Origin: an uncultured Planctomycetota bacterium
GTDB lineage: Bacteria; Planctomycetota; CAZGEP01
NCBI GenBank assembly: GCA_964524955.1
Contig: CAZGEP010000003.1
Span: 15 to 64,014 of the forward strand
Direction of reading: 5' to 3'
DNA length: 64,000 bases
Made by a program: the position numbers and the translations under genes. Under the pieces are notes generated by a model that saw only the letters and a program-made list of their open reading frames with translations, was not told the origin of the DNA and did no database searches. Shown here in pieces: positions 4,118 to 46,846 of this stretch (position 1 is the first letter of the stretch; the number at the start of each line of letters is the position of its first letter).

Positions 4118-4178
4118 TTGCCCCGTCCAACGTTTGTCCCCCTATTAAAATTGGAAGGCCATTCGACCAGGTAATATG

Positions 4179-4300: not shown

Positions 4301-4429
4301 AAGAAAGAAACATAATAGCACGTAATATCATATCTTATTTTTAATCCTTAAATTTTTATGATAGGGATGTAAATGCAGCAAAAAATATATTAAAGCAGGG
4401 TATAAACATATTGTCGGGTTCAGGGACTG

Positions 4430-4567: not shown

Positions 4568-4621
4568 TTTACAGTAATTTCATAAATTGCTAAACATTAA
4601 TGTTTAATTAAAAATCATATC

Positions 4622-29600: not shown

Positions 29601-30279
29601 GATCAATTATTTCAGAGACCTTTCATTTGATGCTGCTGCGGATATGCAATGCAGAATTGGCTTTAATGAGGCATATGATGAGGTGTATTTCTGTTTTTAT
29701 GAAGAAGGAGGATCTGATAATAAGATCGTGGTATTTCTGGAAGATCAGCAGAGGCCCAGGTGGACGCATGAGATAGAAATCGAGTGTAGTGGTATTGCAA
29801 ATATAGGTAATCGGTTATTTACTTTCCTGGGTAATATTATTGACAGTTGGTTTAATGATACCTCTTATTCTGGATTTTTAAGGGCAGAATATCCGGATCC
29901 TGAATTTGAGTTTGTTGTAAATGTTGATCCGGAGAAAGTGAAAAGGTGGAGGGCATTATCATATGATGCCTCTCATAAGTTTTATGCTCCTAATGTTGGA
30001 GATATATCAACGCCGGCCAATGATAATTACGGATCTGGGATGGAGACCAGGTTACTGGAGGCCAGTGTAAAAAGCAAGGAGGGAGTGTACTATGCTTCGA
30101 TAAAAAACGATGCTAATACTCCGGGGGCAGCTGATGTGGCCGAGGCTATCGTTAATGGCAGACCATTAAGGGGAAAGACCATAAAGATTAAATTAACTCT
30201 GGATGCCAGTGATCATAATAATGAGTATATAAATTTTGAAAATGTGAAAATAGTATATTCAGATAGTGAAAAAAGTTAA
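26674..30279 (+). CDS. large virion protein (1201 aa), candidate tail/internal-core component
   Basis: Translationally coupled to the upstream gene and followed by the Gly-rich and giant-protein genes. Confidence 0.45.
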   Translation: MIKEVNISFPGGMDSDSDDANIARGDYRMLKNMRNGISSDGKGGTIENFPNVSQITMSAISGATFLGAAEDHENDVVYLLYSNNYLVSLDKDRSLVYILKGESALNLNESYPIYNARYLDGKVYFTDNNSEPKVVDIQRAINYTENFEGRTFRGQYITTMYFIGDVVTFGNYYYTPKQDGLIGTLPYSTAHWEQLSKISESYAPDLQEQDLYIITKPPMNPPEYYFITDSSYRGNRTRNKNFQFAYRYVYQDFRKSVFSPASQLVVEGNYENIYGTFPIDRGYGEVNNAIRVEFHTGSFEVQFIEIIYRSTDDMSTWYLFKTVEKRDFDGRVLLADDIEWFEIFHNDTLNIPVSDTEVYKPYHYVPEKAGFLELIDDNHLVFADVVEGKDPVTTDVSYELSVKDVSSSLNNKFNLIAGVVKRYTAESDGTIETEAQWYIKHPSFHVLYPGEGNIVVKQYYDGGIKTATISYSAADASIADTVSRLRNECIAQGMDVDTAFEVAWDEDRVCFNTQRSYTSVEDKYYDQGYSVIAYVSPVVNTENVAKVLKQGAIHSCGLVYMDDSRRASSIVGQDQMKAYVPFMTEDTEYGSLLPNHRFSLKFIINHKPPSWATKYMVVYQGSNISTFWCARSDVSIIYGSGFQGLRIFEWYDKMKEQWEDFSQEPYEFQEGDRARLLGIADFSADNFVPADEFIDVPVLGLKNREVMEDGELVEKEPYVMVTLPSGYSYSGDESVWEIYRPKKTDDMLFYETGQVWDISETGNGFVHEGNTDQVLDIDGNVTTSAVVNVDFGDAYKYMMPFFETATRVLTFMENPYSAIFGSKYKIEDLGFPKVFDEFLKNKRLNNRYRYGGSLQLGTKNNQIADFEYGDYGDLEGNYGIINGLEKVGFVLKLLQSHRVWSIYIKRTSSFNPDGSESLILTDAILGTKRPDSQIWGLQDRGAVAVHERHMYFWDRSRGLILRDSANGLFPISDYKMINYFRDLSFDAAADMQCRIGFNEAYDEVYFCFYEEGGSDNKIVVFLEDQQRPRWTHEIEIECSGIANIGNRLFTFLGNIIDSWFNDTSYSGFLRAEYPDPEFEFVVNVDPEKVKRWRALSYDASHKFYAPNVGDISTPANDNYGSGMETRLLEASVKSKEGVYYASIKNDANTPGAADVAEAIVNGRPLRGKTIKIKLTLDASDHNNEYINFENVKIVYSDSEKS

Positions 30280-30935: not shown

Positions 30936-32495
30936 ATGGCGAATTTAATTGGATATGGTGCAGCACAAATTTTTCCGGAACAAGATACCGGGACTGCTAT
31001 TCGTGAATACATGAAGGCCAAAGCTGCTGGAAAAGCCAAAAGGAGAGAAGAACAGGGCAGTTATGGTGATGAACCTTTTGAGGTTCCAGATATAAAACGA
31101 TGGGAAGATGAGAAAAATTTTAATGAGATTACGCAAATGGAGGGAACCCTTCGTGATGTCTGGAACAAGTCATATCAATCGGGATATAATATAAGAAACC
31201 CACAAACGCCACAGGATGCTGTTTTATCAAAAAGATATTATGATTCATGGAAAAAGTATGAGGAGGCTGTTGATCTATATACGACTCAAGGAGAAAGGGT
31301 AAATGATGTTATTGGGCAAATAGATAAGATGGACCCGGAGGAGTATGATGTAGAGGCAACACGGGAAAATTTAGAAAGGTATATTGACGCACCTTCTGTT
31401 TTTGATCGGGCAGGAATGGTGGACAGCATTATAGTTCGTAAAGAAGAGGAGTTTGATGGATTGGAATATATAACTGAGATGTTTCCAAAGTTGACCTCAA
31501 CAAGTAAATATATCACATCGGAAGATATCGATCCGGAGACGGGGAAAATACGAAAAGAAACCTGGGAGGGAATTCCGGAGACTGTCAGAAAAGATGCTAT
31601 TAGAACAATGTATAACGCCGGTGATGCTCGATTCAAAACTTATGTTGATGATTTGAGGGAATCCAATAAAGATGCAACATTAGATAACCCCAATTGGGAT
31701 AATGCTGAATTTGCAGCGAATTATTTCTCTGATATTAAGAAGGGTGGAAAAGAAAATTTAGTGTTTTATTCAACCGGTGGTGGAGACTTTAACCTGGGCA
31801 TAGGATATGGTAATGGCAAGCCCCAAAAACTGGAAGATGGACAGTATGTTAGCAATGAAGAATCGGTATGGTTGTATAATAAAAATAGTGCCGGAAAGAC
31901 TGAACATACATCTCCATTCCAGGTGAATTTGAATAATGATGAGTTGTTTGGAAAGTCAACTTCGCATGTGCAGATGCCAATAACAGATGAGGTTATTAAT
32001 GCCGAAACCGGAAAAAGGGAGGCCGTAAGTTCGCAGTCTTTATTTCGACCTAATAAAATTGTATGGCTTCCGGTTGTGTCTGGAGAACAGAAAAAAGGTG
32101 GTGCTGGATTATGGGATAATGTTACTACCATGTTAAACCCAAACAAATATACCAGGGGAGCTATATTAGGCGATGAGGATTTGCAAAAACTTCAAAATGC
32201 AATGCAGGAAAATCCAGGGACTGCATCAGGCTATGTTTGGCGTCCATATGTTATAGGAACGATGGGATATAAAAGAAAAGAAGGAGAAGTTGGTGGTAAA
32301 GAGCGAATTCTTAATTTGAATCGAAGTGTATATGTTCCATATGAAGATATGTCTGATGAGTTAATAGGCAAGTTTGGGCCGAAATGGGACAAAGCCATTG
32401 GAGATGATGTTACAGAGATCACAAAACAGGCTAATTTTGGTTTAACATCAACACAGGAAAATCAAGAAATAGATTTTAATTCATTAGGATTATAA
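30936..32495 (+). CDS. hypothetical virion protein (519 aa)
   Basis: Its stop overlaps the giant gene start by 1 nt (TAATG). Confidence 0.45.
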   Translation: MANLIGYGAAQIFPEQDTGTAIREYMKAKAAGKAKRREEQGSYGDEPFEVPDIKRWEDEKNFNEITQMEGTLRDVWNKSYQSGYNIRNPQTPQDAVLSKRYYDSWKKYEEAVDLYTTQGERVNDVIGQIDKMDPEEYDVEATRENLERYIDAPSVFDRAGMVDSIIVRKEEEFDGLEYITEMFPKLTSTSKYITSEDIDPETGKIRKETWEGIPETVRKDAIRTMYNAGDARFKTYVDDLRESNKDATLDNPNWDNAEFAANYFSDIKKGGKENLVFYSTGGGDFNLGIGYGNGKPQKLEDGQYVSNEESVWLYNKNSAGKTEHTSPFQVNLNNDELFGKSTSHVQMPITDEVINAETGKREAVSSQSLFRPNKIVWLPVVSGEQKKGGAGLWDNVTTMLNPNKYTRGAILGDEDLQKLQNAMQENPGTASGYVWRPYVIGTMGYKRKEGEVGGKERILNLNRSVYVPYEDMSDELIGKFGPKWDKAIGDDVTEITKQANFGLTSTQENQEIDFNSLGL

Positions 32496-35400
32496 TGAAA
32501 GAAGAAGAAAAAATTAATACGGATCCTCAAAGTCAAATAGAGGGAGAAGAGAAAGAGAAGACTCAATCGAAACCTAAAGATAATGGCGTTGATACTGGTG
32601 TCCAGCCTAAAGTCAATATGGCCAGGGACAGATATCTGAGGGCGAAAAATGCATTGTACTCTAATAAGGAGTTCAAACGCATGGATGATGAGGGTAAACT
32701 TGAACGCCTGGGTAAATTCTATGATGTTCATGGTGTTCCGTATGTAAAGAGTGCAGGGGTAAGTGATCCGGAGAAGATCAATGAATTCAAAGATAAGTTT
32801 CTCGAAAAAGAGTCAGCTGGATTTAAATCAAAAAAAAAAGAGGGTTTCGACTTATCGGAAGAAGACGTGGAGGAAGAAAAATGGCACAGGCCGGATTATC
32901 TGGAAGCGGATCTTGATGCCGTTCCTTCTAATTACAATCCTATTGATGTTATAAAGCCGGTAATTGATGATTTTGAAGTAGAGAATGATGAACTCTACAG
33001 AGAAACTATGGCCGAGAAGAAGGCCGAAGAACAAGCAGAAGCCGAACAGAAAGAGGAAAACGTTCATCAGGCGGTCACTGATATTACCCAGAGCGATCAG
33101 TTTAAGTATGTAAATGATAATCCGGAGGGGTTTTTGTTTAACCTCAATCTGGGAGAGGGCAAAAATATCATTAAGCATTTACGTAAAGAGGGGTATGAGA
33201 AAGATGTTGCCCGGGCAGCCCTGAATCAACTTCGTAATGCATCCAGTAATAAGTTAGTATCAAACAATCTACGCAACTTATCTGCGGAGTTCGGTACCTA
33301 TCAGAATCTATTAGACCATGCGGAAGAGCAGGGTATGCCATTCACAGAAGGGTATCAGCCTGGGACGTTCCTGGATCCGGAGACAGGTGAGAGGCGTGAA
33401 CCGCAAACTGATGAGGAGGCTGATTACGTGGGTAGGATGGAAGGTTTTATGAACAATGTTTCTGATGAGCAAAAGGTGGAAGATTTGTTCATGGATGCCT
33501 ATGCTAAGTATGACTATTGGGATAAGAGGGTTTCAAGTATGGAGGCAAGGAAAGATGATCCATCCATAGGAACTGACTATTCACAGAAAGCCTATTTTGA
33601 AGCATATCGCCAAAGAAAAGATGCAGAGGCAGAGTTTCAGGCCGCCAGTTTGATGCATCTGAAAAATGTCGGACCGGCCAATATAGAAAAAGATAAAGAT
33701 TTTAAACTGGGGGTATTTGCATCCAGTTTTACCGAATCCATGTTAGGGGAGAATCTGGCTGCTATGGATGATAATTCTCAAAGGGAGATGCTCAACAAGA
33801 TGGTTGAGATCGGCCAGAAAGAGTTTAAGCTGACAGAGGAGGAGATGGATGCCCTGAGTGTTGATTTTTATGAGGGGGCAGCCAGTTTGGGAGGGATGCT
33901 TATGCCCGAGGTTCCATCGTTATTGTTAATGGGAGGTACTGCTAATATACTAAAATCTTTAGCCTATACTAAGCGGATGCAGCAGGGGTATAAGATTATA
34001 AGAAATACCGTTCGAACTGATAAAGTTAAAAATGTTGGTAAAAAAGTTAAAGCAGCAAAGCAGGTTATTTCATATAATGATCCTATTCCTACCGGATGGG
34101 AGGTTATAAAAAAAGTACCATCTACGGGTGGTATGAAGTTATTGGGATATGGGTCTGATATTCTCATTAATGAAGCGGTTTTTACTGGTGTTGGAGGATT
34201 TGCTCCAGGTACCATTTCCGGTATGCATGCAGCACACTGGGTTCTTCCGAATTTAAGAATTGGAGGTAAGTATGGTGCTATTCTGCAGCCATATATGGAT
34301 ATGGTTTATAAGAGTGGTTTCGGTGCTACAGTTGGTATGGAGGCTGGAGGGATGTCTGCATCTGCTGTTGATGATCTGATGGGGAACTCTGAATTTAAAG
34401 AGTATTGGCAGCAACAGTACGGTGATTTTTCTGAGGCAGGACAAAGGGTGTTAGCAGAGGTAGCGGTGAACTCCCTGGTGTTTGGTGGCATGCATTTATA
34501 TACTACCAATTCCCGTAAAGTTTTAAACAATCCTATTGGTAATGGTAATAGCGTGGCATATCTGTCTCCTAAGTATCGTAAACGGGTATATGAGACTGCC
34601 CGGGAGGCTGATCGCCTGGGATATACTGATCTTGCCAAAGATTTGGATAACTGGCTTGATATAGCAAAGCAGCCGGTAACAGGTGAGGAAGTACGTAATC
34701 AGAAAATTACTGAGTTGACTAATTTGTCTAAGATCATGCCTGATCAGACGCTAAAGGGAACGTTACGAAATATTGATGTATCTCTACAGGCTCTGGATGC
34801 TCTTCGTAATCATCCAATGTATGAGAAGGGCAATATCTTTAAAAAGCAGGAGTTGTGGCCCATAACAATTCGATATCGCAATAATGAGGTTGTATCTATC
34901 AAAACAGCTAAAGAGGAGGCTCCACCGGTCAAAGGAGAGGGGTTTATTATTATTGATGCCAAGAAAGATATGCCGGGAGGCGTTATTGTTCGGGATCCTT
35001 TTCAGGCTAATTTAATGATGGAGGAATTGCTTCTGCAACGGAAGGTGTTTGAACATGAGGTAGGAGTAAGAAAGGCATCCGGTAAGTTTGGCCAGGAAAA
35101 AGTATCCACAACCAGTAAAGAGCCAACCTTATCAGAATTGCCGGAAGGATCTAATCTTCCCGTATATCCCGATCAGACAATTGCCGTGAAGGGGGATCCT
35201 AAAGGAGGAGAAAAGGTTGCCTTTAAAGATAATCGTTTTGGCATACCATCAGAGGTGTCGAAAAGAACTCCTAAGCAGCTTGCCGATGAGTATCAACGCC
35301 AGCGATCCAAGGTTGAGGAACAGACCAAGGGGATGGAAGATGAGATCACTGAGATGGAGGAGACCCGGAAGGAACAGTTTAAAGGCCGTATAGTAGACAT

Positions 35401-38400
35401 TCAGCAGAGAAAAGAGAGAGATGAGGCTGATGAGGCTATCTCCATGAAACGTCAGGAGGTTGACAAGTTAAAAGGGAGCCTGAATAAAGAGTGGCAGGAT
35501 GTGATTTCCGCAGTTCAGGGAGGAGTAAAGGATCGTTTGAAAAATGTCGTTCCGGAGGAGGATCTGGAAGAATCTTCGGCAGCTGTGTATGATGAGGTGT
35601 TTGCTGAGAGAAATGCTGATAGGTTTGGAGATATGCCTTATGAGGAGGCTGTTGAGGAAATTATTGGGGAGGTTGAGGAGACATATAACCGCCCGGTAGT
35701 AAAAGAGCCAACTGATAAGCTGGTGGACAGTTATATCGCTTATGAGATATCACAGCTGGAAAAACAAGCAGAGGAATATCCCGACCAGGCAGAAGGATTT
35801 CTGCAGGATATAAAAGATCTGAAAAATGATCCGGTAGAATATTTCAGGGATGTGTCTGAACTATACAAGGACGAACCGCTTAATCCTTATAAGATTGAGG
35901 TTGACGCCGTGCTGGGGCACCTGGAAAGTAAGCCTAAGCATGAAGGGAAACCCATTGAGAGTAAACCTAAAGAGAAGAAAGTGCCACCGCCAGAACACAC
36001 GGAGGATGTTCGGTGGACCCTGGAGAATGAAACTGATCCTAAGAAGGTAAAGGTTCTTCATGATGAGTTGATTAGTCGAAATGAGGAGAGATTAGAACCA
36101 TGGCAATGGGATCTGTTATCATATAAGATTGATCCGAATTCATTTAATAGATTTGCTGATCGCAATGAGGTAGGAATGAATCTTGCCAGAAATTGGTTTG
36201 CCAAGAAAGGAGAAACCGGGTATGCCACACATGAGAAACTTGATGTTATTGCACAGGAGATTGGTATTGAGGTACAGGATGCTGTTGATTTTATTATCGC
36301 CAATCCTGTCAAAAGAAAAGCAGCAGAGAATCCGGATATAGCAGATCTTGCCCGTAAATATAGGGAAATGACTGGCCAGCCTATTAGTAAGGCAGAAGTT
36401 GAGGAGAAAGGAGATACAACCCCAATTTCAAGCACAGTTGAGAATATCATGGAATTGGAAAATATTTCTTCATTGGCAGACCTGGAGGCCAAGAAAGGAA
36501 TGTTTGAGGGATTTCCATTTGTTAAAGAGGAGTATGATGCTGTCAAGAAACATCTTGAAAGTCAGGAGGAGAAGCCCAAAGATGAACCATCAAAGCCAGG
36601 GGTTAGTAAATTTGATATGTTGCAAAGCATTACTCCAAAGCAAATGGAGGCTCCGGAGGGAGAGTTTCCATTTAATCATCCTGCTCGTTCTATTTTGGTT
36701 GGTGAGACAATGGATCATTTTAATATGGATCCTGACATACCATTGGGTGAGAACATGGTTGAAAATGAAAATGATCTTGCTCAACTAAGAACATTGGCTG
36801 ATCGGATGGAGGAATTCGCGGTTTTGAATATGGAAGAGGCATCCGAAGGGACAGGCGAATACAAGGGTATAAATCCAGTGGAACGTAAGGATTACGCAGA
36901 TAAGTGGGCCAGGATCGCTGAATGGACAAAGAGGTATCAACTGGAACTGGATGATTGGTTTGATGAAAAGTTTGATGAGAAAAAGAAACCGGAAGTTGAA
37001 AAGTCTACAATTAAGAAACCCGAATCCTCAGAGACCAGGGAGAGGGATGATCTGGATGATGATTTGGACGCCTTATCAAGTTTGATCGATGGTATTGATA
37101 AGCCATTCGGTGCCCCAGGTGCGTCCGCTACGGATCCGGCCCAGGAGATCGAGATCAACAAGGCAGCCAACAGAGTTATAGCCAAGCTGATAGAGAAGGG
37201 AGATTACCGGCTCCCATCTATCATGTCAAAATTAGCTGATCGCCTTGAACAGGTACGCCTGGAGGCGATGTTCCCATATATAAAAGGACAGTATGGTTCG
37301 TACTTTACAGAGAGGGCTACGGCTAAAGAGGCTGAACAGATGGATATCATGGAGGCCCGTAACTTTCAGAAAAGTGATATTGAAAAGCTATATCAGGAAA
37401 AGCATAAGCCCGAGAAGGTCGAATCGGGGGTAGATCCTCAGACATACGTGGGTAAGAGATATCATATTCCGAACGCCAAAGAAAAAAATCTGCAGCATAT
37501 TGAGATTTTAAGAGTTGAGGAGTGGGATGATGTTGATCAGGCAGAGTTAAAGTATGGCGGTCCGCTATTCAGAGAAAAGCCTGAAGGACAAAAGATTCTT
37601 GTTGCTGTATATAATGACTTATCACGTCTGGGATATGGTAAAGAGGGAGTACCTGTTGATCAACTTGAAAAATTGATTAAGGCTGGCGAGGCAACAGAAC
37701 TACCTCCATTTGAGAATTTGGATGATTGGAAACATGAGATGGGGGTTTTAGCTGATCTGGAACTTAGGATTGGTAATGTTGAGAGGGCGAAAAAAATACA
37801 AGATAAGATAGAGAAGGGGCCAACAATTCAGGATCAGGTTAATATTATTGATGGGCAGCCCGAGTGGAAAAGAACTGTGGAAAACGCCCAGGCATCGGCC
37901 AGAAATAGGTTAAAGGCTGCCAAGATACATTCAGGTGAGGTAATATTAAAACCTAACGACAGGCCATTAAAGGACGTATCTGAGGAGGGTATTGTCATGG
38001 CGTTGGATGAAGGGAGGAAACAGCCCATTGGTGCATTCTTAAAAAATGCCGATCCGGAACTATTCGATAAGTTTGTTGAATTGCAGAAAGAGTCTGCATG
38101 GGTACAACAGCAATCAGGAACAAATCCACAGATGGCAGAGGAAAACTATGCCCTGGCTGATTATGTATCTTATTTTAATATGCTTAATGCTCCTGGCAAT
38201 GGAGATATTATGGCATACCAGCAGAAGGCCAAGGATCTTAACTATAAAGATTTTGATCAGAAAAGGTATGATTATGTTAAGAAGATTTATAAAGAGGGTA
38301 TTCAGGCGTATGAACAACATATAAATCGCAAGAAAAACTTTCTTACCCGGCAGAAGATCAAAAATATGATGATTAATGGGGAGAGGGTTGATTTCAAAAC

Positions 38401-41400: not shown

Positions 41401-44400
41401 CAACAAGACGGATATTGTTCGCAAGTATAACAATACTCCGAATACTGTTATTGCTGGTAATACTGCCATATCAACCGGGCTGTCAGCACATTCATCAATT
41501 GATTTTAAGGATCAGTCTGTCAGGGTAGGAAAGATGATGCAGCCGAATCCGGAGATCAATACATACATGCAGACCCTGGGACGGATTAACAGGGCAGGAC
41601 AAGTTAATCTGCCTATCTTCGATCATATCAGTTCGGTGATCCCGGCCGAGAAACGCCTGATGATGATGACTAAGCAGAAGTTGGGATTATTGGATGCCTC
41701 AACTACCAGTAATCAGAAGCAGAGTGATGATCGTTTATCTATCGTTGATTTCTTTAATAAGTATGGCGATCAGGTCATTGAGGAGTATCTGATGGATAAT
41801 CCGGAGGTTAACAGGATGATCGGGGATCCATTGGGATTGCTGGATGATTCTAAAGAGCCGCCTGCAGAACCACATCGCAAGGTTACTAATGAAATAAGCA
41901 TCGTTCCGACAAAGGTTCAGGAGTCTTTTTATGAAGATATTATAAACAGGTATAAGACATTAATGGACTTTCTGAATTCCCAGGATATGAATGACCTGGA
42001 GGTTAAGACCATGGATATTAAGGCCGAATCAATTTCCAAGGATCTGATTGTCCAGGGCCGTGGTGGGCGTAGTCGTCTGGGTGATGATAGTCATATAGAG
42101 ATCATGGAGATCAATTCTCTAAGAAAGCCAATGAACATCGAAGAGATCAATAATAATGTGCAGAAAGAACTTGCCGGTCGTACAGGGAGGGATTATGTGT
42201 CAGATCTGTATGATAAGTTTCGTAAAGGGGCACAGGAGAAAGTGGATCAGAGGCTGAAAGACATGAATGATCATTATGACGTCAAAATAAAGGATGAACA
42301 TGATCTGTATGAGAAAAAAGTCAGAGAGGGAAAGGATGAGCTGGACGCCAGGAGAAAAAGAGATGAGAATATAGAGAGGATCGAGGACACACGGAAGGCC
42401 AGGCATGATGGGTTAGTTGACATTCATACCTATAACGTAGGATTTGTAAAAAATACGTTGCAGTATTTTATACCGGGAGAAGTATATGAGGTGCCTTTTA
42501 ATAGTAACAAGGGATCTATTACCAGGATGAACAAGGGAGTGGTTATTGGATATGAGTTTAATGATAAAGTTGAGAACCCGTATGTGCTGAGTAACTTAAA
42601 GATCAAGTTTGCTACACAGGATTCACGCAGGGCGTTTTCAGTTCCTTTAAGTAAGAACCAATATATCAATACTATTAAGTCAAGCAGTATGTCGCTGACT
42701 GAAGGGGAGAAAGAGTCTACCAAGCAGGAATGGAATACAATGTCCAGTGGCAAGGCCCGGGTAAAAAGGTTTATTGTTACCGGGAATATCCTACAGGCGT
42801 TTGCCAGTCATAAGGGGCAGCTGATTGAGTTCACCATGAAAAATGGGTCTGTTAAGAAGGGAATTCTGATGCCAGAGAATTTTGATTATAAACCTTCTGA
42901 GGGGGTGACTATTGGTATTAAGGATGCTGCCAATGTTATTAAGGCCCTGGCAGAGGGTGATTTTGTGGAGACTACCGATGGGAGAGTGAGTATTCACAGG
43001 GGAGTATCCTGGTCAATGAATAGATACACCAGTCCGGGAGAGATTTATTATACTGTTAAGGTGCCATCCAGTAGGGATAAAGGAAGAAAATACTGGGATC
43101 CGGCAATCAGTGATCTGCCGGAGTTGATGAACAGAGGAGAATTTTCTGATACCCAGGGGAAGATGGTTGGGATATTTACCGAACAGACAATGCAGGATGT
43201 TCTGGATGAACTGGATAAGCACCGTCTTACCATTATAACCAAAAATCATAACGTATCACGGAGTCAGCCTAATTCAGCAGAGGTGCATTTCGGACAGACC
43301 TCCGTTGTTAAAGAACGCCATGAGGACATCGAGGAGGTGATGGAGGATGCTGATCAGAAAGAGAGGGAGAAGAATCAGAAGATCGTTATGAATGATACTG
43401 GTATGACGGATCGTATTGCCCCGGCTCCGATATCAGGGAAACAGCCTAAAAAGCTATGGGAGATCCAGGCAGAGATACCTAAGAAATTCAATCGACCGGT
43501 ACGTTATGGACAGCCACGGAGTAGGAAGGCTGCCGGGACATATTCTCCCGGGGAAGGTCTTATAACTTTGAAATATAATGGCGATCTGGACGTGACGGCA
43601 CATGAATTGGGTCATTTGACTGATGATTTATTCGGTCTGGTTAGCCCGGAGTTCAGGTATAGATTTCCGGATTTTCAAGATGAATTGGATAAATTGTCAC
43701 AATGGGGTAGCAAACCAGATAAGAATGCTCCCAAAGAACAGCAGGAGATGTATAAGAGGGCTGAGGGAGTGGCAGAGTACCTTCGTGCATGGATGATCAA
43801 TCCTACAGAGACCGAAGCTCAGTACCCGAGATTTACCGAATGGTTTAAGGATAGAGTTGATGATGAGATGCTGGATATCATACGTGAGTTTGGTGATGAT
43901 ATACGTGCCTGGGTAGGATCAACCAATATGGAAAAGGTAGGGGCCAATGTGGGTAGTAAACTTGAAGATAAACATTTTCAGCCTATATGGGCCAGGATAT
44001 TTGCTCAATCAGAAGGTAATCCGTTAGGGATGAGATGGAGATGGAGCGATAAGTTTATATGGGGATGGAGTAATGACCAGTGGCCATGGATGAAGGCTGC
44101 CATTGAGGCAATGAAGGTTAAAGGTTTAGCCAAAGGGCCGGTATCAGCATGGAATCCAGAGAACATGCGTCCAAGTGAGAATCCATTATATGTTGGATCT
44201 TTACTGCCTGGACATACTGAGAAGGTAGTTAGGATGATGACAGATGGTATTAGCATGCCTAATGGGAATGTTCTCTATGATACACAATCGCCAGATAAAA
44301 CCAGGTCCAGGTTAACAGTAAGGTTTATAATGGAACCACTGGATAAGACTGATCAGAAAACTTTTATTAAGGCATATAATGATGCCGTGAGGTTTATGGT

Positions 44401-46846
44401 GGCAGAGAGGGCTATTGAGTACCCCTGGAAGATGGAGGATAAGCAGATGCGGTTGGACCTTGAACAGTTTGAAGATAAACTGCCTCCCATGGAGGTACTG
44501 GATCGCCATCCACATGTGCGTAAACGTTATCAGGGGAAGATTGAGAAAATTCTTAATTGGGCATTGGAGAATGATATTTCGGAAAGTGAACTATTCTTAC
44601 CTATCAAGAGATATACCCGATTTGAAAATGATATATCCACGGGTATTGGTGCAGGTATTTTTACGGACCTTGAAGTTGCAAAAGGGGCTTATGAGGAAGT
44701 TAAAGCGGACCCGGCCAAATTTGAAATGTATAATGAGTTTGCTCGTAGGTATCGGGCATACGGAGATGGGGTTATGCTGTACGCCATGCAAAGTGGTTTA
44801 ATTAAAGCAGAGGCATATGAGTTTATCAAGGAGACCAACTTGTCATATGTAATGCTGCAGAGAATGATGAATACAGATCCAACAGAGATTGTCATGGATA
44901 TTAAGGGTTCTCATAAGGCTCCAGATAATTTAGGTGGCGGTGATGCTATTGGTCTTATAAATGATCCATCATGGACTCATGCTTTTACAGGCAGCTCTAA
45001 GGGGATCAAAGATCCGGTGGATCAGATTATGAACGCCTTATATAATACGGTGCAGAATGGTGATAAAAATCACTTCATGGCGATATTTACTGATTTGTTT
45101 AAGTCCACCAGGAGTATGTATGATCCACAGCATAACGCCTTATCAGACCTGGGCCGCCGGGTACCATATAAGACGAAAAACTCAGTAAGTCTTAAAAGGC
45201 TGGGATATGAGGAACATTGGGAGTTTGATCCGGTGGTAAAAAAAGCTCTTACCGAGACGGTTAAGAGTATTCCTATTCCTGTGTTAAAGCAATTTGCTGA
45301 TGTATTTCGTTATGGAATTGTCAACAACGTGGTGTTCGCAATCAGGAATGTTCAGCGAGATACTCCATGGAACTGGATCCTTAATCCTCATCCATATAAG
45401 TTGAGGCATTGGGGAGATCCTAAGCAGCAGAAATTTGCATCGGAGTCAGTGGATCGCATGGGAGGTGGTCAGTTTGGTTGGTATATGACTACCCAGACTC
45501 AGTATTATGGGTTGATGCATAAGGTGATGATTGATTTGTTGGAGAATAAGAATAACTTAATCCTTGATCCCAGATATATAAAAACATCATTGTGGGATAA
45601 GGGATATATGGAAATGCTTAAATTTTTTGAACGCTGGCCCAGGTTAGCTACTTTCAGTTCTTCATTCGATTGGATGAAAAAGAAAGGGAAAACTAAAAAG
45701 GGAGATAAGTATACCGATAAGGATGCGATGATCTATGGTGCAGTAAAAGCTCGAAAGACAATGGATTATCATGTGGCCGGGCATTATATTAGGCAGATCA
45801 TGACTAATACGCCATTTCTAAACCCGAAGATCCGTGGTCTGGTCAGGAGTGTATGGGCTGTTAGATCAGGTTCATATGGTATCTTTTTAAGGCTGGGTAT
45901 TTTATCGCTCATTGGAACTGCTTTACAGACGGCGTTAATATTGGCTACAAAGAATAAATCAGACATGTTGAAGGAGTATAAGCAGTTTAAGCCGTGGCGT
46001 AGAGATTTGTTTTATAACTTCCCAACCCCGGGAGGTGGATGGATCACGATTCCCAGGGCTTTTGATTTGGGGATATTAACAAGTGCCATGCAAAGGGGGG
46101 CTGATAAACTCATGCTGGGGGATGATCGTGCTTTTGAGAATTATATTGGTAGAACGTTATTCAACCTGGTTATGCCATTTCAGTTCACCGATATGACATC
46201 GGCTGTATCAGGACCTGTGATTGTGGCTACCGGAAAAGATTACTTCCGGGATAGATATGTAATACCGCCTGATGAACAGAAGACTGATATAAGAACTCGT
46301 GATACAGACCGTGCCAGTCAGTTTGGGAAAGATGTACAGGACGTTACTGGAAGGTTAAATGAGAAGTTGGGGGGCCAGCAGAAACCCTGGTTTGATGCCA
46401 GGATGATTGATGCGTTCATACAGGCTCAGTTTGGATATTATGGAAAGCAGGGATTGGATGCGTATCAGGATATTCATGGAAAAGATGATGATAGCTACTT
46501 TGGGTTTGATTGGTCAGATACCGGTCAGTTTAAATACTCTAATGTCTACCAGGCCAAAGATGTTCAGTATGTGATTGAAGAGGCTCAAAAGTGGCCACAC
46601 CTATACCGGGATCCCGGGTATCGTGCTTTCAAAGATCAGGTATCTAATTATTTCGAGACAGATAAAGGTTCAAGGCAAAGAACCAATGCCGGTGTTGAAT
46701 TGATGGATTACGCCACCAATTTAAGATCGCAATGGGAAGAAAGAGATATGTTTGAGGAGTGGCAGGAGATTCAGAATAAAGAATCTGATGGAAAGATCAC
46801 TTTTGGGAATCAGGGGGAAATAGGGCCAACGAAGAAGTTTGATTGA
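32495..46846 (+). CDS. giant polyvalent protein (4783 aa): N6-adenine-MTase-like + SNF2/DEAD-like helicase + HExxH zincin domains; DarB-like anti-restriction/ejection candidate
   Basis: Uninterrupted 14,352-nt ORF. MTase motif I IFDTAAGNGMLL (~aa 2062) and motif IV LNPPFG (nt 38906-38923). Helicase motif I IIGDQTGVGKGG (~nt 39985-40010), motif II VVLDESH (nt ~40372-40392), motif VI QTLGRINRAGQ (~nt 41570-41601). Zincin HELGH (nt 43601-43615). K/E-rich N-terminal ~2000 aa with Gly-rich hydrophobic segments; Pro/Gly/Thr linker at aa ~2290-2400; TM-like helix near aa ~4490. Confidence 0.75.
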   Translation: MKEEEKINTDPQSQIEGEEKEKTQSKPKDNGVDTGVQPKVNMARDRYLRAKNALYSNKEFKRMDDEGKLERLGKFYDVHGVPYVKSAGVSDPEKINEFKDKFLEKESAGFKSKKKEGFDLSEEDVEEEKWHRPDYLEADLDAVPSNYNPIDVIKPVIDDFEVENDELYRETMAEKKAEEQAEAEQKEENVHQAVTDITQSDQFKYVNDNPEGFLFNLNLGEGKNIIKHLRKEGYEKDVARAALNQLRNASSNKLVSNNLRNLSAEFGTYQNLLDHAEEQGMPFTEGYQPGTFLDPETGERREPQTDEEADYVGRMEGFMNNVSDEQKVEDLFMDAYAKYDYWDKRVSSMEARKDDPSIGTDYSQKAYFEAYRQRKDAEAEFQAASLMHLKNVGPANIEKDKDFKLGVFASSFTESMLGENLAAMDDNSQREMLNKMVEIGQKEFKLTEEEMDALSVDFYEGAASLGGMLMPEVPSLLLMGGTANILKSLAYTKRMQQGYKIIRNTVRTDKVKNVGKKVKAAKQVISYNDPIPTGWEVIKKVPSTGGMKLLGYGSDILINEAVFTGVGGFAPGTISGMHAAHWVLPNLRIGGKYGAILQPYMDMVYKSGFGATVGMEAGGMSASAVDDLMGNSEFKEYWQQQYGDFSEAGQRVLAEVAVNSLVFGGMHLYTTNSRKVLNNPIGNGNSVAYLSPKYRKRVYETAREADRLGYTDLAKDLDNWLDIAKQPVTGEEVRNQKITELTNLSKIMPDQTLKGTLRNIDVSLQALDALRNHPMYEKGNIFKKQELWPITIRYRNNEVVSIKTAKEEAPPVKGEGFIIIDAKKDMPGGVIVRDPFQANLMMEELLLQRKVFEHEVGVRKASGKFGQEKVSTTSKEPTLSELPEGSNLPVYPDQTIAVKGDPKGGEKVAFKDNRFGIPSEVSKRTPKQLADEYQRQRSKVEEQTKGMEDEITEMEETRKEQFKGRIVDIQQRKERDEADEAISMKRQEVDKLKGSLNKEWQDVISAVQGGVKDRLKNVVPEEDLEESSAAVYDEVFAERNADRFGDMPYEEAVEEIIGEVEETYNRPVVKEPTDKLVDSYIAYEISQLEKQAEEYPDQAEGFLQDIKDLKNDPVEYFRDVSELYKDEPLNPYKIEVDAVLGHLESKPKHEGKPIESKPKEKKVPPPEHTEDVRWTLENETDPKKVKVLHDELISRNEERLEPWQWDLLSYKIDPNSFNRFADRNEVGMNLARNWFAKKGETGYATHEKLDVIAQEIGIEVQDAVDFIIANPVKRKAAENPDIADLARKYREMTGQPISKAEVEEKGDTTPISSTVENIMELENISSLADLEAKKGMFEGFPFVKEEYDAVKKHLESQEEKPKDEPSKPGVSKFDMLQSITPKQMEAPEGEFPFNHPARSILVGETMDHFNMDPDIPLGENMVENENDLAQLRTLADRMEEFAVLNMEEASEGTGEYKGINPVERKDYADKWARIAEWTKRYQLELDDWFDEKFDEKKKPEVEKSTIKKPESSETRERDDLDDDLDALSSLIDGIDKPFGAPGASATDPAQEIEINKAANRVIAKLIEKGDYRLPSIMSKLADRLEQVRLEAMFPYIKGQYGSYFTERATAKEAEQMDIMEARNFQKSDIEKLYQEKHKPEKVESGVDPQTYVGKRYHIPNAKEKNLQHIEILRVEEWDDVDQAELKYGGPLFREKPEGQKILVAVYNDLSRLGYGKEGVPVDQLEKLIKAGEATELPPFENLDDWKHEMGVLADLELRIGNVERAKKIQDKIEKGPTIQDQVNIIDGQPEWKRTVENAQASARNRLKAAKIHSGEVILKPNDRPLKDVSEEGIVMALDEGRKQPIGAFLKNADPELFDKFVELQKESAWVQQQSGTNPQMAEENYALADYVSYFNMLNAPGNGDIMAYQQKAKDLNYKDFDQKRYDYVKKIYKEGIQAYEQHINRKKNFLTRQKIKNMMINGERVDFKTVKNIADSYRLNLSDSELRETLEFAITERFRDIGMNRLRDVDKRFNDVVNFYIAQPSLGKLTSEAKSKQQYSTPAPLAFSMNEYLNGSSIRSIFDTAAGNGMLLVFSDGRGKSFTLDRGYNSGIYANEISESRVRNLKELGFEVYNSDASKPVSETGYSWGIGHADALALNPPFGTIPQESIDGYKIKKLEHKIIMNSMPLMNDTGKAAIIVGEHMTVDEDGYITGDEKYFYNWLSKNYNVDGVINIDSGLYSKMGTSFPVRAILINGRKPVPESQALRFKEEDLKPKVTWPEVYETIKSIKSDPNESNVLRPSVDDIGRTDTSVRPEPPAEETSEKPTGDSTVPVPEGGQPGEGMEEQRPDATGGGVPGNVPPSVSPKRGRTGTETGSITGTTGGVEGSVPSPGTQPTETNVGETGVPPIERSDNAGVSTRSERTKRLSERIAGGVEKYRPISSGPSGETVLPSSQANEMEDALLQLKDEIGNFDEYVRDKLGYDTISDLHKGCFAEQVDGIALAIYNIENGEGMIIGDQTGVGKGGVAAGVLTYAHKQGLKPIFITKDATLYTDIYRDFNRMGKGDLKPFIMNAKFPNGQKTTITDPDGKVLYEADPAVLSKALQEGNIPEEYDLMVMSYSQINTDRTIGAAARRQLFTNLARGNIVVLDESHLASGQSNTGIFLRETLQDAKGAVFLSATYAKRPDNLALYSAKTVMREAGLTDEELSEVIKAGGPALMEIISGQLVESMQFIRRERSMEGIPNNWIVYGEDPATGKRLSHGEEMVRKYDQITEVVRDIIDFQDMFVNPVIKEMKKQAKQQNKEVKERGGTSRMGVNNTPYFSKVYNVIQQLLFAIKAPYVVEDSMRDLAKGRKPFIAFTNTMEAMLKDMLDQGLVEMNTEISTDFAYVLEKGLKGTLTYTETSEEGIPSKEEFDPSDLGENGQRTYYNLVDRIKEMTSGIPISPIDVMRTKFEEQGVTFLEVTGRGVMIEYTTPDFSKGKIVTRKKDNKTDIVRKYNNTPNTVIAGNTAISTGLSAHSSIDFKDQSVRVGKMMQPNPEINTYMQTLGRINRAGQVNLPIFDHISSVIPAEKRLMMMTKQKLGLLDASTTSNQKQSDDRLSIVDFFNKYGDQVIEEYLMDNPEVNRMIGDPLGLLDDSKEPPAEPHRKVTNEISIVPTKVQESFYEDIINRYKTLMDFLNSQDMNDLEVKTMDIKAESISKDLIVQGRGGRSRLGDDSHIEIMEINSLRKPMNIEEINNNVQKELAGRTGRDYVSDLYDKFRKGAQEKVDQRLKDMNDHYDVKIKDEHDLYEKKVREGKDELDARRKRDENIERIEDTRKARHDGLVDIHTYNVGFVKNTLQYFIPGEVYEVPFNSNKGSITRMNKGVVIGYEFNDKVENPYVLSNLKIKFATQDSRRAFSVPLSKNQYINTIKSSSMSLTEGEKESTKQEWNTMSSGKARVKRFIVTGNILQAFASHKGQLIEFTMKNGSVKKGILMPENFDYKPSEGVTIGIKDAANVIKALAEGDFVETTDGRVSIHRGVSWSMNRYTSPGEIYYTVKVPSSRDKGRKYWDPAISDLPELMNRGEFSDTQGKMVGIFTEQTMQDVLDELDKHRLTIITKNHNVSRSQPNSAEVHFGQTSVVKERHEDIEEVMEDADQKEREKNQKIVMNDTGMTDRIAPAPISGKQPKKLWEIQAEIPKKFNRPVRYGQPRSRKAAGTYSPGEGLITLKYNGDLDVTAHELGHLTDDLFGLVSPEFRYRFPDFQDELDKLSQWGSKPDKNAPKEQQEMYKRAEGVAEYLRAWMINPTETEAQYPRFTEWFKDRVDDEMLDIIREFGDDIRAWVGSTNMEKVGANVGSKLEDKHFQPIWARIFAQSEGNPLGMRWRWSDKFIWGWSNDQWPWMKAAIEAMKVKGLAKGPVSAWNPENMRPSENPLYVGSLLPGHTEKVVRMMTDGISMPNGNVLYDTQSPDKTRSRLTVRFIMEPLDKTDQKTFIKAYNDAVRFMVAERAIEYPWKMEDKQMRLDLEQFEDKLPPMEVLDRHPHVRKRYQGKIEKILNWALENDISESELFLPIKRYTRFENDISTGIGAGIFTDLEVAKGAYEEVKADPAKFEMYNEFARRYRAYGDGVMLYAMQSGLIKAEAYEFIKETNLSYVMLQRMMNTDPTEIVMDIKGSHKAPDNLGGGDAIGLINDPSWTHAFTGSSKGIKDPVDQIMNALYNTVQNGDKNHFMAIFTDLFKSTRSMYDPQHNALSDLGRRVPYKTKNSVSLKRLGYEEHWEFDPVVKKALTETVKSIPIPVLKQFADVFRYGIVNNVVFAIRNVQRDTPWNWILNPHPYKLRHWGDPKQQKFASESVDRMGGGQFGWYMTTQTQYYGLMHKVMIDLLENKNNLILDPRYIKTSLWDKGYMEMLKFFERWPRLATFSSSFDWMKKKGKTKKGDKYTDKDAMIYGAVKARKTMDYHVAGHYIRQIMTNTPFLNPKIRGLVRSVWAVRSGSYGIFLRLGILSLIGTALQTALILATKNKSDMLKEYKQFKPWRRDLFYNFPTPGGGWITIPRAFDLGILTSAMQRGADKLMLGDDRAFENYIGRTLFNLVMPFQFTDMTSAVSGPVIVATGKDYFRDRYVIPPDEQKTDIRTRDTDRASQFGKDVQDVTGRLNEKLGGQQKPWFDARMIDAFIQAQFGYYGKQGLDAYQDIHGKDDDSYFGFDWSDTGQFKYSNVYQAKDVQYVIEEAQKWPHLYRDPGYRAFKDQVSNYFETDKGSRQRTNAGVELMDYATNLRSQWEERDMFEEWQEIQNKESDGKITFGNQGEIGPTKKFD
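32830..32839 (+). repeat. A10 homopolymer inside the giant ORF
   Basis: tcaaaaaaaaaagaggg at codon ~112-115 (KSKKKEG). Confidence 0.9.

What the first reader, a model, noticed from the sequence alone, without database searches (positions are those of the whole stretch)
32495..46846. Single 14.35-kb ORF for a 4783-aa polyvalent MTase-helicase-metallopeptidase protein in a virion operon
One uninterrupted frame combines an N6-adenine methyltransferase-like module (FDTAAGNG ... NPPF) and an SNF2/DEAD-like helicase (GxGKG, DESH, QTLGRINRAGQ). The MTase precedes the helicase, the same order as phage P1 DarB. Further downstream is an HExxH zincin (TAHELGHLTDD). The N-terminal ~2000 aa are K/E-rich with Gly-rich hydrophobic stretches, and a TM-like helix lies near the C-terminus. 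The gene sits at the end of a run of translationally coupled virion genes (26674-46846). This fits the polyvalent protein class (Iyer et al. 2017): packaged and co-injected with DNA to neutralise host restriction or other defences. At roughly twice the size of DarB it would be among the largest phage proteins. The domain combination and the unexplained ~2000-aa N-terminus and ~1000-aa C-terminus may hold undescribed anti-defence or ejection functions.
Basis: partly seen in the sequence, partly recalled or inferred. Interest (0 to 1): 0.85.

Follow-up and report, generated by a model that had tools for sequence, protein, structure and literature searches.

The report
Giant phage polyvalent cargo protein
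A real, intact 4783-residue phage gene fuses a DNA-methylase/helicase pair and a zinc protease onto a conserved carrier; it most likely rides in the virus particle and is injected to blunt host restriction, a protein class already described.

Summary
Six full-length colinear orthologues (4035-5364 aa) in independent assemblies share the architecture, so it is not an assembly artefact.

It has three parts:
- a conserved N-terminal region (aa ~50-1830; Gly/Ala/Met-rich block 380-760) with no Pfam family;
- a complete NPPF adenine-methylase plus Strawberry-notch-type SF2 ATPase cassette (aa ~1950-3575), 36-40% identical to free-standing ~1555-aa Bacteroidota proteins;
- a ~1150-aa C-terminal module with an invariant HExxH lethal-factor-like zincin and LPD38.

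The gene sits in a fixed slot of a Bacteroidota podophage virion operon: muzzle-like gene, two small genes, then the giant. Relatives in that slot keep the N-block but carry other payloads.

Three corrections apply. It resembles P1 DarB in architecture only, since the helicase family differs and there is no sequence match. It is not exceptional in size (BS-TP4 gp3 5391 aa; Bcep22 gp75 4602 aa, virion-proven). The termini are not orphans.

Packaging and anti-restriction activity are inferred, not shown. Verdict: new member of a known kind; interest moderate.

The parts
32495..46846 (+). Whole gene: 4783-aa polyvalent protein. Its start overlaps the stop of the upstream 519-aa gene by 1 nt (TAATG).
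   Evidence: colinear orthologues P0139/P0140/P0142/P0147/P0152/P0143
32642..34744 (+). Conserved N-terminal region (aa ~50-750). The core 'N-block' spans aa ~380-760 and is rich in Gly/Ala/Met. Motifs: FEAxSRM..N.EGP, GWxV.K, DEAxFxGxGGFxxGxxTGMNxA, KSGxGATxGMEAG, SKRVLxExxVNSLxFGGM, YxSPxxRxxVYxAAxE..WLD. It has no Pfam, PHROG or PDB relative.
   Evidence: (35 hits; giants of 2725-5558 aa)
34745..38341 (+). Acidic, weakly conserved middle of the N-terminal part (aa ~751-1949). It contains a recurring block at aa ~1150-1300 that is also found in other 1800-3100-aa proteins. It also contains a window-specific insert at aa ~1350-1500. Met1835 marks the fission/fusion point seen in relative L016.
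   Evidence: aa 1789-1950 conserved at 44% in contig L008
38342..39334 (+). N6-adenine-type methyltransferase domain (aa ~1950-2280), with motif I FDTAAGNG (2062) and motif IV NPPF (2139).
   Evidence: Pfam N6_Mtase E 1.6e-3, below cut-off; motifs invariant in 31 relatives; profile vs PDB gives METTL5 at E 4e-3
39335..39751 (+). Pro/Gly/Thr-rich linker (aa ~2281-2419). It is an insertion relative to the free-standing Bacteroidota homologues.
39752..43219 (+). Strawberry-notch-type SF2 ATPase/translocase with its C-terminal extension (aa ~2420-3575). Walker A is at 2497, DESH at 2630 and motif VI at 3026.
   Evidence: AAA_34 3.3e-12, Helicase_C_4 4e-11, DEAD 1.6e-5; PHROG 14770 1e-65; 455+ homologues; motifs invariant
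43415..44419 (+). Zincin metallopeptidase (MPTase) sub-module (aa ~3640-3975). HELGH is at 3703 with Asp three residues after the motif. The probable third ligand is in AEGVAE (aa 3756-3761).
44420..46846 (+). Alpha-helical C-terminal sub-module (aa ~3976-4783). It includes the hydrophobic helix 4467-4485 and LPD38 (4494-4664).
   Evidence: LPD38 2.5e-15; profile hits to Bacillus phage Page gp20 (8e-64) and Vibrio phage 44E38.1 p13 (4e-50); end-to-end BFVD matches; no PDB match
26674..30279 (+). 1201-aa muzzle/nozzle-like tail protein that anchors the conserved slot.
   Evidence: phrog_14478 virion structural protein 1e-42; weak crAss_MUZ_C E 4e-3; homologous to phi19:3 gp120; same position in L004, L009, L012-L018
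30292..32495 (+). Two small genes (212 aa and 519 aa) between the muzzle-like gene and the giant. Their position corresponds to the crAss001 cargo proteins gp45 and gp46.
   Evidence: conserved in L009, L016, L017, L018; PMC10172136

Best explanation
The gene encodes a phage-type polyvalent protein. This is a virion-packaged cargo or ejection protein that is delivered into the host cell ahead of or together with the DNA.

It is built as a carrier plus a payload. The carrier is the conserved N-terminal region (aa ~50-1830) together with the C-terminal MPTase-LPD38 module (aa ~3640-4760). Both recur in other phage giants that sit in the same genomic slot. The payload here is a complete adenine-methylase plus Strawberry-notch ATPase cassette (aa ~1950-3575).

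Proposed mechanism (inferred):
- Late in infection the protein is made together with the tail and cargo genes and is incorporated into the capsid.
- At infection it is extruded through the muzzle-type tail.
- The ATPase translocates along the entering double-stranded DNA, and the fused methylase modifies or shields it. This protects the DNA in cis from restriction, as proposed for the methylase-helicase dyad of P1 DarB.
- The lethal-factor-like zincin cleaves the polyprotein, either in the head or after delivery, to free the modules.

What is shown:
- The gene is intact.
- The domain identities are established, and the catalytic motifs are conserved.
- The gene lies inside the virion operon, and its slot is conserved.
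- The modular build and payload swapping are observed in relatives.

What is inferred:
- Packaging and ejection.
- The methylase's substrate.
- Anti-restriction activity.
- Autoproteolysis.
For: Domains:
- Pfam gives LPD38, AAA_34 and Helicase_C_4.
- MTase and helicase motifs are invariant in 31 family members and in 6 orthologues.
- HExxH..D plus a downstream Glu helix are invariant.

Context:
- TerL, portal and virion structural genes lie upstream.
- The muzzle-like gene, two small genes and the giant follow one another, with a TAATG junction at the giant's start.
- The same order is found in L004, L009, L012-L016, L017 and L018.
- In crAss001 the genes after the muzzle gene encode cargo proteins detected in virions (PMC10172136).

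Modularity:
- P0145 and P0141 keep the N-block and the C-module without the dyad. P0149 carries LPD5 and LPD1 instead.
- C-module relatives carry InPase, ART-PolyVal or SAM-MTase heads.
- BFVD matches carry RelA/SpoT, lytic transglycosylase or methylase heads.

Precedent:
- Iyer et al. 2017 describe MPTase, SNF2 ATPase and N6A methylase as hub domains. They report LPD38 only in phage-type proteins, and a phage MPTase clade with Asp three residues after HExxH (PMC5512222).
- P1 DarB is packaged and protects against EcoB/EcoK (PMC9024508).
- JC1 gp69 (4515 aa, DarB-like) was detected in purified virions with 51 unique peptides (PMC9144972).
- Homologues of the C-module sit in the ejection-protein slot of a P22-like Vibrio phage, and as the last virion gene of Bacillus phage Page.
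Against: - There are no proteomic or functional data for this protein or for any sequence-level homologue.
- The virion-proven giants are either only analogous (P1 DarB; no match) or very weakly related (Bcep22 gp75; best i-E 2.5e-4 in a single-target search).
- The phi19:3 giant in the same slot, annotated as virion structural, is not homologous.
- The MTase scores below Pfam's cut-off, and its nearest solved relative is an rRNA methylase. Several sources name the homologues 'predicted RNA methylase'. The substrate is therefore open.
- The closest relatives of the dyad are chromosomal or mobile-element proteins of Bacteroidota that are not obviously packaged.
- crAss_MUZ_C scores below its threshold on the window's own protein.
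Confidence: 0.72

Rival explanations
1. The protein is primarily an ejectosome or genome-internalisation machine, not an anti-defence effector. The N-block and the helical C-module would form or line the trans-envelope conduit, as T7 gp14/15/16 and P22 gp7/16/20 do. The Sno ATPase would act as a motor that pulls the genome in, analogous to transcription-driven entry in T7 and N4. Methylation would be secondary.
For: - The slot corresponds to ejection-protein positions in a P22-like Vibrio phage and after the crAss-type muzzle gene (PMC10172136).
- The N-block has conserved Gly/Ala/Met-rich, moderately hydrophobic segments.
- The N-block and C-module are kept when the dyad is absent. This suggests the carrier has an essential role of its own.
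- No phage RNA polymerase was identified in the window.
Against: - No hydrophobic segment in the N-block reaches a transmembrane-like score (maximum KD 1.2).
- The C-terminal hydrophobic helix is not consistently hydrophobic in relatives.
- There is no structural match to any solved ejectosome protein.
- If the dyad were the entry motor it should not be dispensable, yet relatives in the same slot lack it.
- The dyad's best homologues are free-standing proteins of mobile elements.
Confidence: 0.17
2. The protein is a non-packaged intracellular enzyme that happens to be encoded in the late operon. It could be a phage DNA-modification or remodelling enzyme that methylates progeny genomes before packaging, or a superinfection-exclusion or host-takeover factor.
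For: - The dyad is closest to free-standing chromosomal or mobile-element proteins.
- There is no direct evidence of packaging.
- Late expression would suit methylation of progeny DNA.
Against: [quoted passage not shown]
- The gene has an invariant position between tail and cargo genes, with overlapping stop and start, in nine or more related genomes.
- A 540-kDa fusion to carrier modules is hard to explain for a soluble modification enzyme.
- Analogous giants are found in virions (PMC9144972).
Confidence: 0.08
3. The single ORF is an artefact of assembly or sequencing that fuses two or three adjacent genes.
For: - One relative (L016) encodes the N-terminal ~1.9k aa and the remainder as two ORFs.
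- Another relative (L014) has a frameshift.
Against: - Six orthologues of 4035-5364 aa from different samples are colinear over aa 33-4780.
- L012, L013 and L015 keep one frame.
- The L014 break is a one-base homopolymer difference from L013 and L015.
- The L008 break is a 100-N gap.
- The helicase-to-MPTase junction is crossed in a single frame in L008.
Confidence: 0.03

Closest known systems
Phage-type polyvalent proteins (Iyer, Burroughs, Anand, de Souza, Aravind 2017, J Bacteriol; PMC5512222)
   Same: - Giant multidomain protein in a phage packaging/late-gene context.
- Zincin MPTase, an SNF2-clade ATPase and an N6A methylase, which are the three hub domains of the class.
- LPD38, a phage-only domain.
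- Asp three residues after HExxH.
- Variable effector heads joined to shared modules.
   Different: - The ATPase is the Strawberry-notch type, which the paper reports in polyvalent proteins only 'in a few instances'.
- The ~1800-aa N-terminal region, including the conserved N-block, matches no Pfam LPD family.
- The conserved C-terminal unit is ~1150 aa, far larger than the 189-position LPD38 model.
Phage P1 DarB (2255 aa; defence against restriction)
   Same: - Order of an N-terminal adenine MTase followed by an SF2 helicase-like ATPase.
- Phage-encoded.
- DarB is packaged (~40 copies) and protects incoming DNA in cis from Type I R-M (PMC9024508, PMC5512222).
   Different: - No detectable sequence similarity (phmmer E > 1).
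- DarB's ATPase is classical SNF2 (SNF2-rel_dom plus Helicase_C), not AAA_34 plus Helicase_C_4.
- DarB has no MPTase-LPD38 module and no N-block.
- No homologues of the accessory proteins DarA, DdrA, DdrB, Hdf or Ulx were seen.
- P1 is a myovirus.
Bcep22-like (Lessievirus) 'DarB-like antirestriction protein' (Bcep22 gp75 4602 aa; JC1 gp69 4515 aa)
   Same: - Same size class, in a podophage.
- Located late in the virion morphogenesis module on the same strand.
- Virion-associated by mass spectrometry (PMC9144972).
- An HExxH upstream of a region that aligns weakly and colinearly with the C-module.
   Different: - Only marginal sequence relationship (best i-E 2.5e-4).
- No match to the Sno dyad profile.
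- Different host phylum and a different virion gene set.
Bacteroides phage BS-TP4 gp3 (5391 aa, 'hypothetical protein'; PQ571277)
   Same: - The only cultured-phage protein with a clear match. The MTase-Sno cassette aligns over aa 1982-3575 at 31% identity.
- Fragments of the C-module are present.
- Bacteroidota host.
   Different: - Its N-terminal 2560 aa are unrelated.
- No HExxH sub-module was detected.
- The genomic position differs: gene 3, just upstream of the portal gene.
- It is a temperate phage.
Free-standing Bacteroidota 'strawberry notch family' / 'predicted RNA methylase' proteins (~1555-1730 aa)
   Same: They align end-to-end with window aa ~1950-3575 at 36-40% identity, with all MTase and ATPase motifs invariant.
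   Different: - They lack the N-terminal region and the MPTase-LPD38 module.
- They are often fused to RadC/JAB or MutS-I instead.
- They are encoded on Mb-scale bacterial contigs.
- They lack the Pro/Gly/Thr linker.
crAss001 cargo proteins gp45/gp46 and vRNAP-associated gp47/49/50 (PMC10172136)
   Same: Giant alpha-helical proteins encoded directly downstream of the muzzle gene. They are present in virions and are proposed to be extruded partly unfolded through the tail.
   Different: - No sequence homology was tested or found.
- The payload there is an RNA polymerase, not a methylase-helicase.
- The window's muzzle assignment is weak (crAss_MUZ_C E 4e-3, below threshold).
- The phage's TerL groups with Pachyviridae-like flavobacterial podophages.

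Membership tests
Polyvalent proteins, phage type (Iyer et al. 2017) | Several unrelated enzymatic or effector domains in one very large polypeptide | tested here: met
   MTase, Sno ATPase, zincin and LPD38 in 4783 aa
Polyvalent proteins, phage type (Iyer et al. 2017) | Encoded in a phage packaging/late (virion) gene context | tested here: met
   TerL, portal, structural and tail genes lie upstream on the same strand, with an overlapping stop and start. The same slot is found in nine or more related loci.
Polyvalent proteins, phage type (Iyer et al. 2017) | Presence of class-specific domains (LPD38; zincin MPTase with HExxH plus a downstream Glu helix) | tested here: met
Polyvalent proteins, phage type (Iyer et al. 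2017) | Protein is packaged in the virion and delivered into the host on infection | not testable with these tools
   Support comes only from synteny and analogy (PMC10172136, PMC9144972, PMC9024508).
P1 DarB family | Sequence homology to DarB | tested here: not met
   phmmer of the whole protein against DarB gave no hit at E <= 1. The module profiles gave E 5.7.
P1 DarB family | N6A MTase followed by an SF2 helicase-like ATPase in one polypeptide | tested here: met
   The window has the MTase at 2031-2239 and the ATPase at 2484-3100. DarB has the MTase at 144-289 and SNF2/Helicase_C at 832-1516.
P1 DarB family | Classical SNF2-type ATPase (SNF2-rel_dom plus Helicase_C) | tested here: not met
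   The window hits AAA_34 and Helicase_C_4 (Strawberry notch type), not SNF2-rel_dom or Helicase_C.
P1 DarB family | Protects incoming DNA in cis from Type I restriction | not testable with these tools
   This needs plating assays on restricting hosts.
Strawberry notch (Sno) SF2 ATPases | AAA_34 N-terminal lobe and Helicase_C_4 C-terminal lobe with intact Walker A, DExH, SAT and motif VI | tested here: met
   Both Pfam hits are above their cut-offs (46.4 vs 27; 43.6 vs 30.5). The motifs are invariant.
N6-adenine (amino) methyltransferases, (D/N)PP(Y/F) class | Rossmann fold with SAM-binding motif I (xxGxG) followed by catalytic motif IV NPPF | tested here: inconclusive
   Both motifs are present, 77 aa apart, and invariant in the family. 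Pfam N6_Mtase scores 18.3 bits, below its 20.4 cut-off. The family profile against PDB gives METTL5 at E 4e-3. No structure model of this domain was made.
Zincin metallopeptidases (anthrax lethal factor-like / gluzincin) | HExxH helix plus a downstream helix that supplies a Glu ligand, on the zincin fold | tested here: met
Crassvirales cargo proteins | Encoded downstream of a muzzle protein with the crass fold | tested here: inconclusive
   crAss_MUZ_C is recorded for the syntenic 1070-aa gene of L004. It scores only E 4e-3, at 18 bits against a cut-off of 27, on the window's 1201-aa protein. TerL relatives are flavobacterial podophages, not annotated crassviruses.
Known anti-phage defence systems (PADLOC) | Match to any defence-system protein model | tested here: not met
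   There were 0 families at E <= 0.01.

The most novel reading that the evidence does not exclude
The conserved N-terminal region has no family assignment and no structural relative. It spans the N-block at aa ~380-760 and continues to ~1830, and it is separable as its own gene in L016. Together with the ~1150-aa MPTase-LPD38 module, it may form a dedicated protein-delivery chassis of muzzle-tailed Bacteroidota podophages. In this reading the N-terminal part would lead extrusion through the tail and across the envelope. The C-terminal part would dock the protein in the capsid, and the zincin would release whatever payload is inserted between them. That would be a natural, modular, programmable system for injecting proteins of more than 150 kDa into Bacteroidota cells.
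Probability: 0.3. Interest if true: 0.65.

Novelty: new member of a known kind. Interest (0 to 1): 0.42.

Why it matters
Polyvalent proteins are thought to be the first phage proteins a host cell meets, yet almost none has been studied outside P1 and N4. This locus gives a clean natural experiment. The genomic slot is fixed, the N-terminal and C-terminal carrier modules are fixed, and the middle is swappable: a methylase-helicase here, LPD5/LPD1 or nothing in relatives.

That makes three questions directly testable in Bacteroidota phages, which dominate gut and marine viromes:
- What targets such giants to the capsid?
- How does a 540-kDa protein get through a short tail?
- Does the methylase-helicase dyad really protect incoming DNA?

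Practical points:
- The 5391-aa gp3 of the cultured Bacteroides phage BS-TP4 is currently annotated as 'hypothetical'. It can now be annotated, and it offers an experimental handle.
- The N-block is a candidate new domain family.

Tried and rejected
- The whole-protein search of the 5.8-billion-protein set timed out, so I split the query.
- The word-indexed search with aa 1-1968 found nothing, as did tblastn against phages and PDB. I provisionally called the N-terminus an orphan. The exhaustive HMMER search overturned that.
- I found no internal repeats in the N-terminus.
- I expected the C-module to match the N4 vRNAP C-terminal encapsidation region and P1 DdrB. Neither is significant.
- I expected the phi19:3 giant gp129, a virion structural protein in the same slot, to be a homologue. 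It is not.
- Frame breaks in relatives could have suggested the ORF is a fusion artefact. They turned out to be a 100-N gap (L008), a contig-end artefact (L008, at nt 6481) and a homopolymer indel (L014). Only L016 looks like a real fission.
- Megablast of 24 kb of the virion module against 50,697 phage records found no match.
- The promoter and terminator scan showed no enrichment over shuffles and was uninformative.
- PADLOC and NCBIfam gave no hits.
- Foldseek against PDB with the 1158-aa model found nothing significant.
- I looked for a crAss-type RNA-polymerase DxDGD motif in the giant and found none.
Full report
**Observation**

The window contains an uninterrupted ORF at 32495..46846 on the + strand, encoding 4783 aa. 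All quoted motifs are present:
- FDTAAGNG at aa 2062
- NPPF at 2139
- GDQTGVGKG at 2497
- DESH at 2630
- QTLGRINRAGQ at 3026
- HELGH at 3703, the only HExxH in the protein

The ATG overlaps the TAA of the upstream 519-aa gene (TAATG). The N-terminal 2000 aa are charged and net acidic, with a Gly-rich stretch at aa 501-750. One hydrophobic 19-mer lies at aa 4467-4485.

**What the element is**

The window is a phage. It encodes the following, all on the + strand:
- large terminase (6555-8792)
- portal (8825-11158)
- structural proteins
- a 2354-aa fibre with an S74 chaperone domain
- further virion proteins
- lysozyme, primase/helicase, and RecE-like and RecT-like genes downstream

Megablast finds no close relative among 50,697 phage records. 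TerL is 26-30% identical to podophages of Cellulophaga, Flavobacterium, Maribacter and Tenacibaculum. The virion genes at 24473, 25916 and 26674 are homologous, in the same order, to gp118, gp119 and gp120 of Cellulophaga phage phi19:3 (Pachyviridae). The host is therefore most likely a member of the Bacteroidota.

**Domain content**

Pfam gives these hits:

| Family | Residues | E-value | Note |
|---|---|---|---|
| LPD38 | 4494-4664 | 2.5e-15 | |
| AAA_34 | 2492-2723 | 3.3e-12 | |
| Helicase_C_4 | 2983-3100 | 4e-11 | |
| DEAD | – | 1.6e-5 | |
| N6_Mtase | 2031-2239 | 1.6e-3 | 18.3 bits, cut-off 20.4 |

The helicase is therefore the Strawberry-notch (Sno) branch of the SNF2 clade.

A search with aa 1969-3625 found more than 455 homologues. 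The best are ~1555-1730-aa 'strawberry notch family' or 'predicted RNA methylase' proteins of Bacteroidota, at 36-40% identity. Many lie on Mb-scale contigs and many are fused to RadC/JAB or MutS-I. They align end-to-end with window aa ~1950-3575. This part of the giant is thus a complete copy of a free-standing protein, with a Pro/Gly/Thr linker (aa ~2281-2419) inserted between the methylase and the ATPase.

In a 31-sequence alignment, MTase motifs I and IV and helicase motifs I, II, III and VI are invariant. The family profile's only solved-structure match is METTL5, an NPPF-type m6A methylase (E 4e-3).

**C-terminal module**

Residues 3576-4783 retrieved 18 metagenomic proteins of 1200-2060 aa, at 27-31% identity and up to 95% coverage. 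Nearly all carry LPD38. Their N-terminal heads differ: InPase, ART-PolyVal plus LPD1, or SAM-MTase.

HExxH, the Asp pair that follows it and a downstream E..E are invariant.

A profile of the module detects it in several phage giants:
- at the C-terminus of Bacillus phage Page gp20 (E 8e-64), the last gene of that phage's virion module
- in Vibrio phage 44E38.1 p13 (E 4e-50), which lies between the tail-stabilisation genes and the tailspike
- as fragments in BS-TP4 gp3

It does not detect N4 vRNAP, P1 DdrB or P1 DarB.

An AlphaFold model of aa 3626-4783 (pLDDT 66, mostly alpha-helical) has no significant PDB neighbour. It does match, over about 1000-1300 aligned columns, the C-terminal fragments of many phage polyvalent proteins in BFVD (E down to 6e-22). 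Those proteins have RelA/SpoT, lytic-transglycosylase or methylase heads.

**N-terminal region**

The word-indexed search found nothing. The exhaustive HMMER search with aa 381-1580 found 35 proteins. Residues ~380-780 are 29-47% identical to the same relative position in giants of 2725-5558 aa.

Local comparison shows six full-length colinear orthologues with the same three-part architecture:

| Protein | Length (aa) |
|---|---|
| P0139 (aligned with window aa 33-4780) | 4655 |
| P0140 | 4634 |
| P0142 | 4825 |
| P0147 | 4987 |
| P0152 | 5364 |
| P0143 | 4035 |

All catalytic motifs are conserved in these orthologues.

Other proteins keep the N-block but not the dyad. P0141 and P0145 have the N-block and the C-module only. 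P0149 carries LPD5 and LPD1.

The N-block has strongly conserved motifs. It has no Pfam, PHROG or PDB relative. Its Gly/Ala/Met-rich segments are only moderately hydrophobic.

**Synteny**

The order 'muzzle-like ~1100-1250-aa gene, ~210-aa gene, ~510-570-aa gene, giant' recurs in these loci:
- L009 (P0139)
- L004 (P0001, where the large gene carries Pfam crAss_MUZ_C)
- L017 (P0145) and L018 (P0149)
- five IMG/VR contigs

In L017 and L018 the giant's start shares a coordinate with the upstream gene's end, as in the window. The window's own 1201-aa protein hits crAss_MUZ_C only weakly (E 4e-3).

In the solved crAss001 virion, the genes after the muzzle gene encode cargo proteins gp45 and gp46 and the giant RNAP-associated proteins. 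All were found in virions by mass spectrometry and are proposed to be extruded partly unfolded (PMC10172136).

**Integrity of the frame**

- Three IMG/VR loci keep one frame to the end of the stored DNA.
- The break in L014 is a one-base homopolymer difference from L013 and L015.
- The break in L008 is a 100-N gap, and its terminal stop interrupts an invariant motif at the contig end.
- L016 is the exception. ORF1 ends in TAATAA, and a new frame opens about 30 nt later with a Met that aligns with window Met1835.

So the N-terminal ~1.9k aa and the rest can exist as two genes. The fusion seen in the window is one state of a variable family.

**Comparison with known systems**

The protein fits the phage-type polyvalent proteins of Iyer et al. 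2017. MPTase, SNF2-clade ATPase and N6A methylase are the network hubs of that class. LPD38 is restricted to phages. The 'DNA methylase-helicase dyad' is proposed to bind and methylate injected DNA, and Sno-type ATPases are noted 'in a few instances' (PMC5512222).

P1 DarB shares only the domain order. Its ATPase is classical SNF2, and no sequence similarity is detectable.

The size is not exceptional:
- BS-TP4 gp3: 5391 aa
- Bcep22 gp75: 4602 aa, and JC1 gp69: 4515 aa, the latter detected in virions with 51 unique peptides (PMC9144972)
- Metagenomic relatives: up to 5558 aa
- A plasmid polyvalent protein: 12,242 aa (PMC5512222)

Bcep22 gp75 shows only a weak colinear match to the C-module profile. 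No PADLOC or NCBIfam model matches the window protein.

**Mechanism and confidence**

Shown:
- The gene is intact and conserved.
- The domain identities and the catalytic motifs are established.
- The gene sits in a fixed position within a virion operon.
- It has a carrier-plus-payload organisation with payload swapping.

Inferred:
- Incorporation into the capsid and ejection.
- Cis protection of incoming DNA by the translocating methylase.
- Processing by the zincin.
- A role of the N- and C-terminal modules in delivery and encapsidation. This is by analogy with N4 vRNAP, whose MPTase-containing region is needed for encapsidation (PMC5512222), and with DarB's N-terminal capsid-targeting signal (PMC9024508).

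I put about 0.72 on the cargo/anti-restriction reading and about 0.17 on a primarily ejectosome/motor role. The rest is split between a non-packaged enzyme and an artefact.

**Verdict**

The finding is a new member of a known class. The additions are a conserved N-terminal domain with no family assignment, and the evidence for a fixed slot with swappable payloads in Bacteroidota podophages. Interest is moderate (0.42). A specialist would not be surprised by the class, but the carrier/payload system is experimentally attractive.

Noticed in passing
window 14963-22027: A 2354-aa tail-fibre-like ORF ends in a Peptidase_S74 intramolecular-chaperone domain (aa 2256-2309). That implies a self-cleaving fibre or spike.
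   Followed up: partly
window 11165-12442: A 425-aa ORF between the portal gene and the probable capsid gene has a collagen-like triple-helix repeat and weak tail-fibre PHROG hits.
   Followed up: no
window 1-64000: Nearly all substantial ORFs from 365 to 63138 are on the + strand, and GC skew is positive throughout. The skew falls to about 0 only in 62001-64000, where two minus-strand ORFs (63074-63574 and 63558-63971) begin. This is a probable boundary between transcription or replication modules.
   Followed up: no
window 47752-51593: Two ORFs (585 and 695 aa) just downstream of the giant have weak Ig-like/DUF5018 hits. In the relative L009 the equivalent region holds a Pel9A-like beta-helix protein. 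The virion module therefore seems to continue past the giant.
   Followed up: partly
L016 13900-14160 (IMG/VR UViG_3300028835_002196): In this related phage the giant is split into two ORFs. ORF1 ends in a tandem stop (TAATAA), and the second frame opens at a Met that aligns with window Met1835. This looks like a natural gene fission or fusion point.
   Followed up: partly
L001 1511-17686 (Bacteroides phage BS-TP4, PQ571277): gp3 of this cultured temperate gut phage is 5391 aa and annotated only as 'hypothetical protein'. It carries the methylase-Strawberry-notch cassette and fragments of the C-terminal module, so it is a tractable experimental model.
   Followed up: partly
L007 1-17226 (GCA_020852255.1, Bacteroidia MAG): The free-standing RadC-methylase-Sno protein P0022 is the second-to-last large gene of a co-directional block of small unannotated genes that includes an Amidase_2. 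Ordinary host genes follow. This looks like a prophage or integrated element.
   Followed up: no
window 57923-62085: A YqaJ/RecE-like exonuclease and a RecT-like annealase form a recombination module. The YqaJ gene is also conserved downstream of the giant in relatives L009 and L018.
   Followed up: no
window 32495-38398 (method note): The word-indexed homology search returned no hit for the N-terminal 1968 aa. The exhaustive HMMER search found 35 relatives, 14 of them at E <= 1e-30. 'Orphan' calls from the indexed search alone are unsafe for fast-evolving phage proteins.
   Followed up: yes
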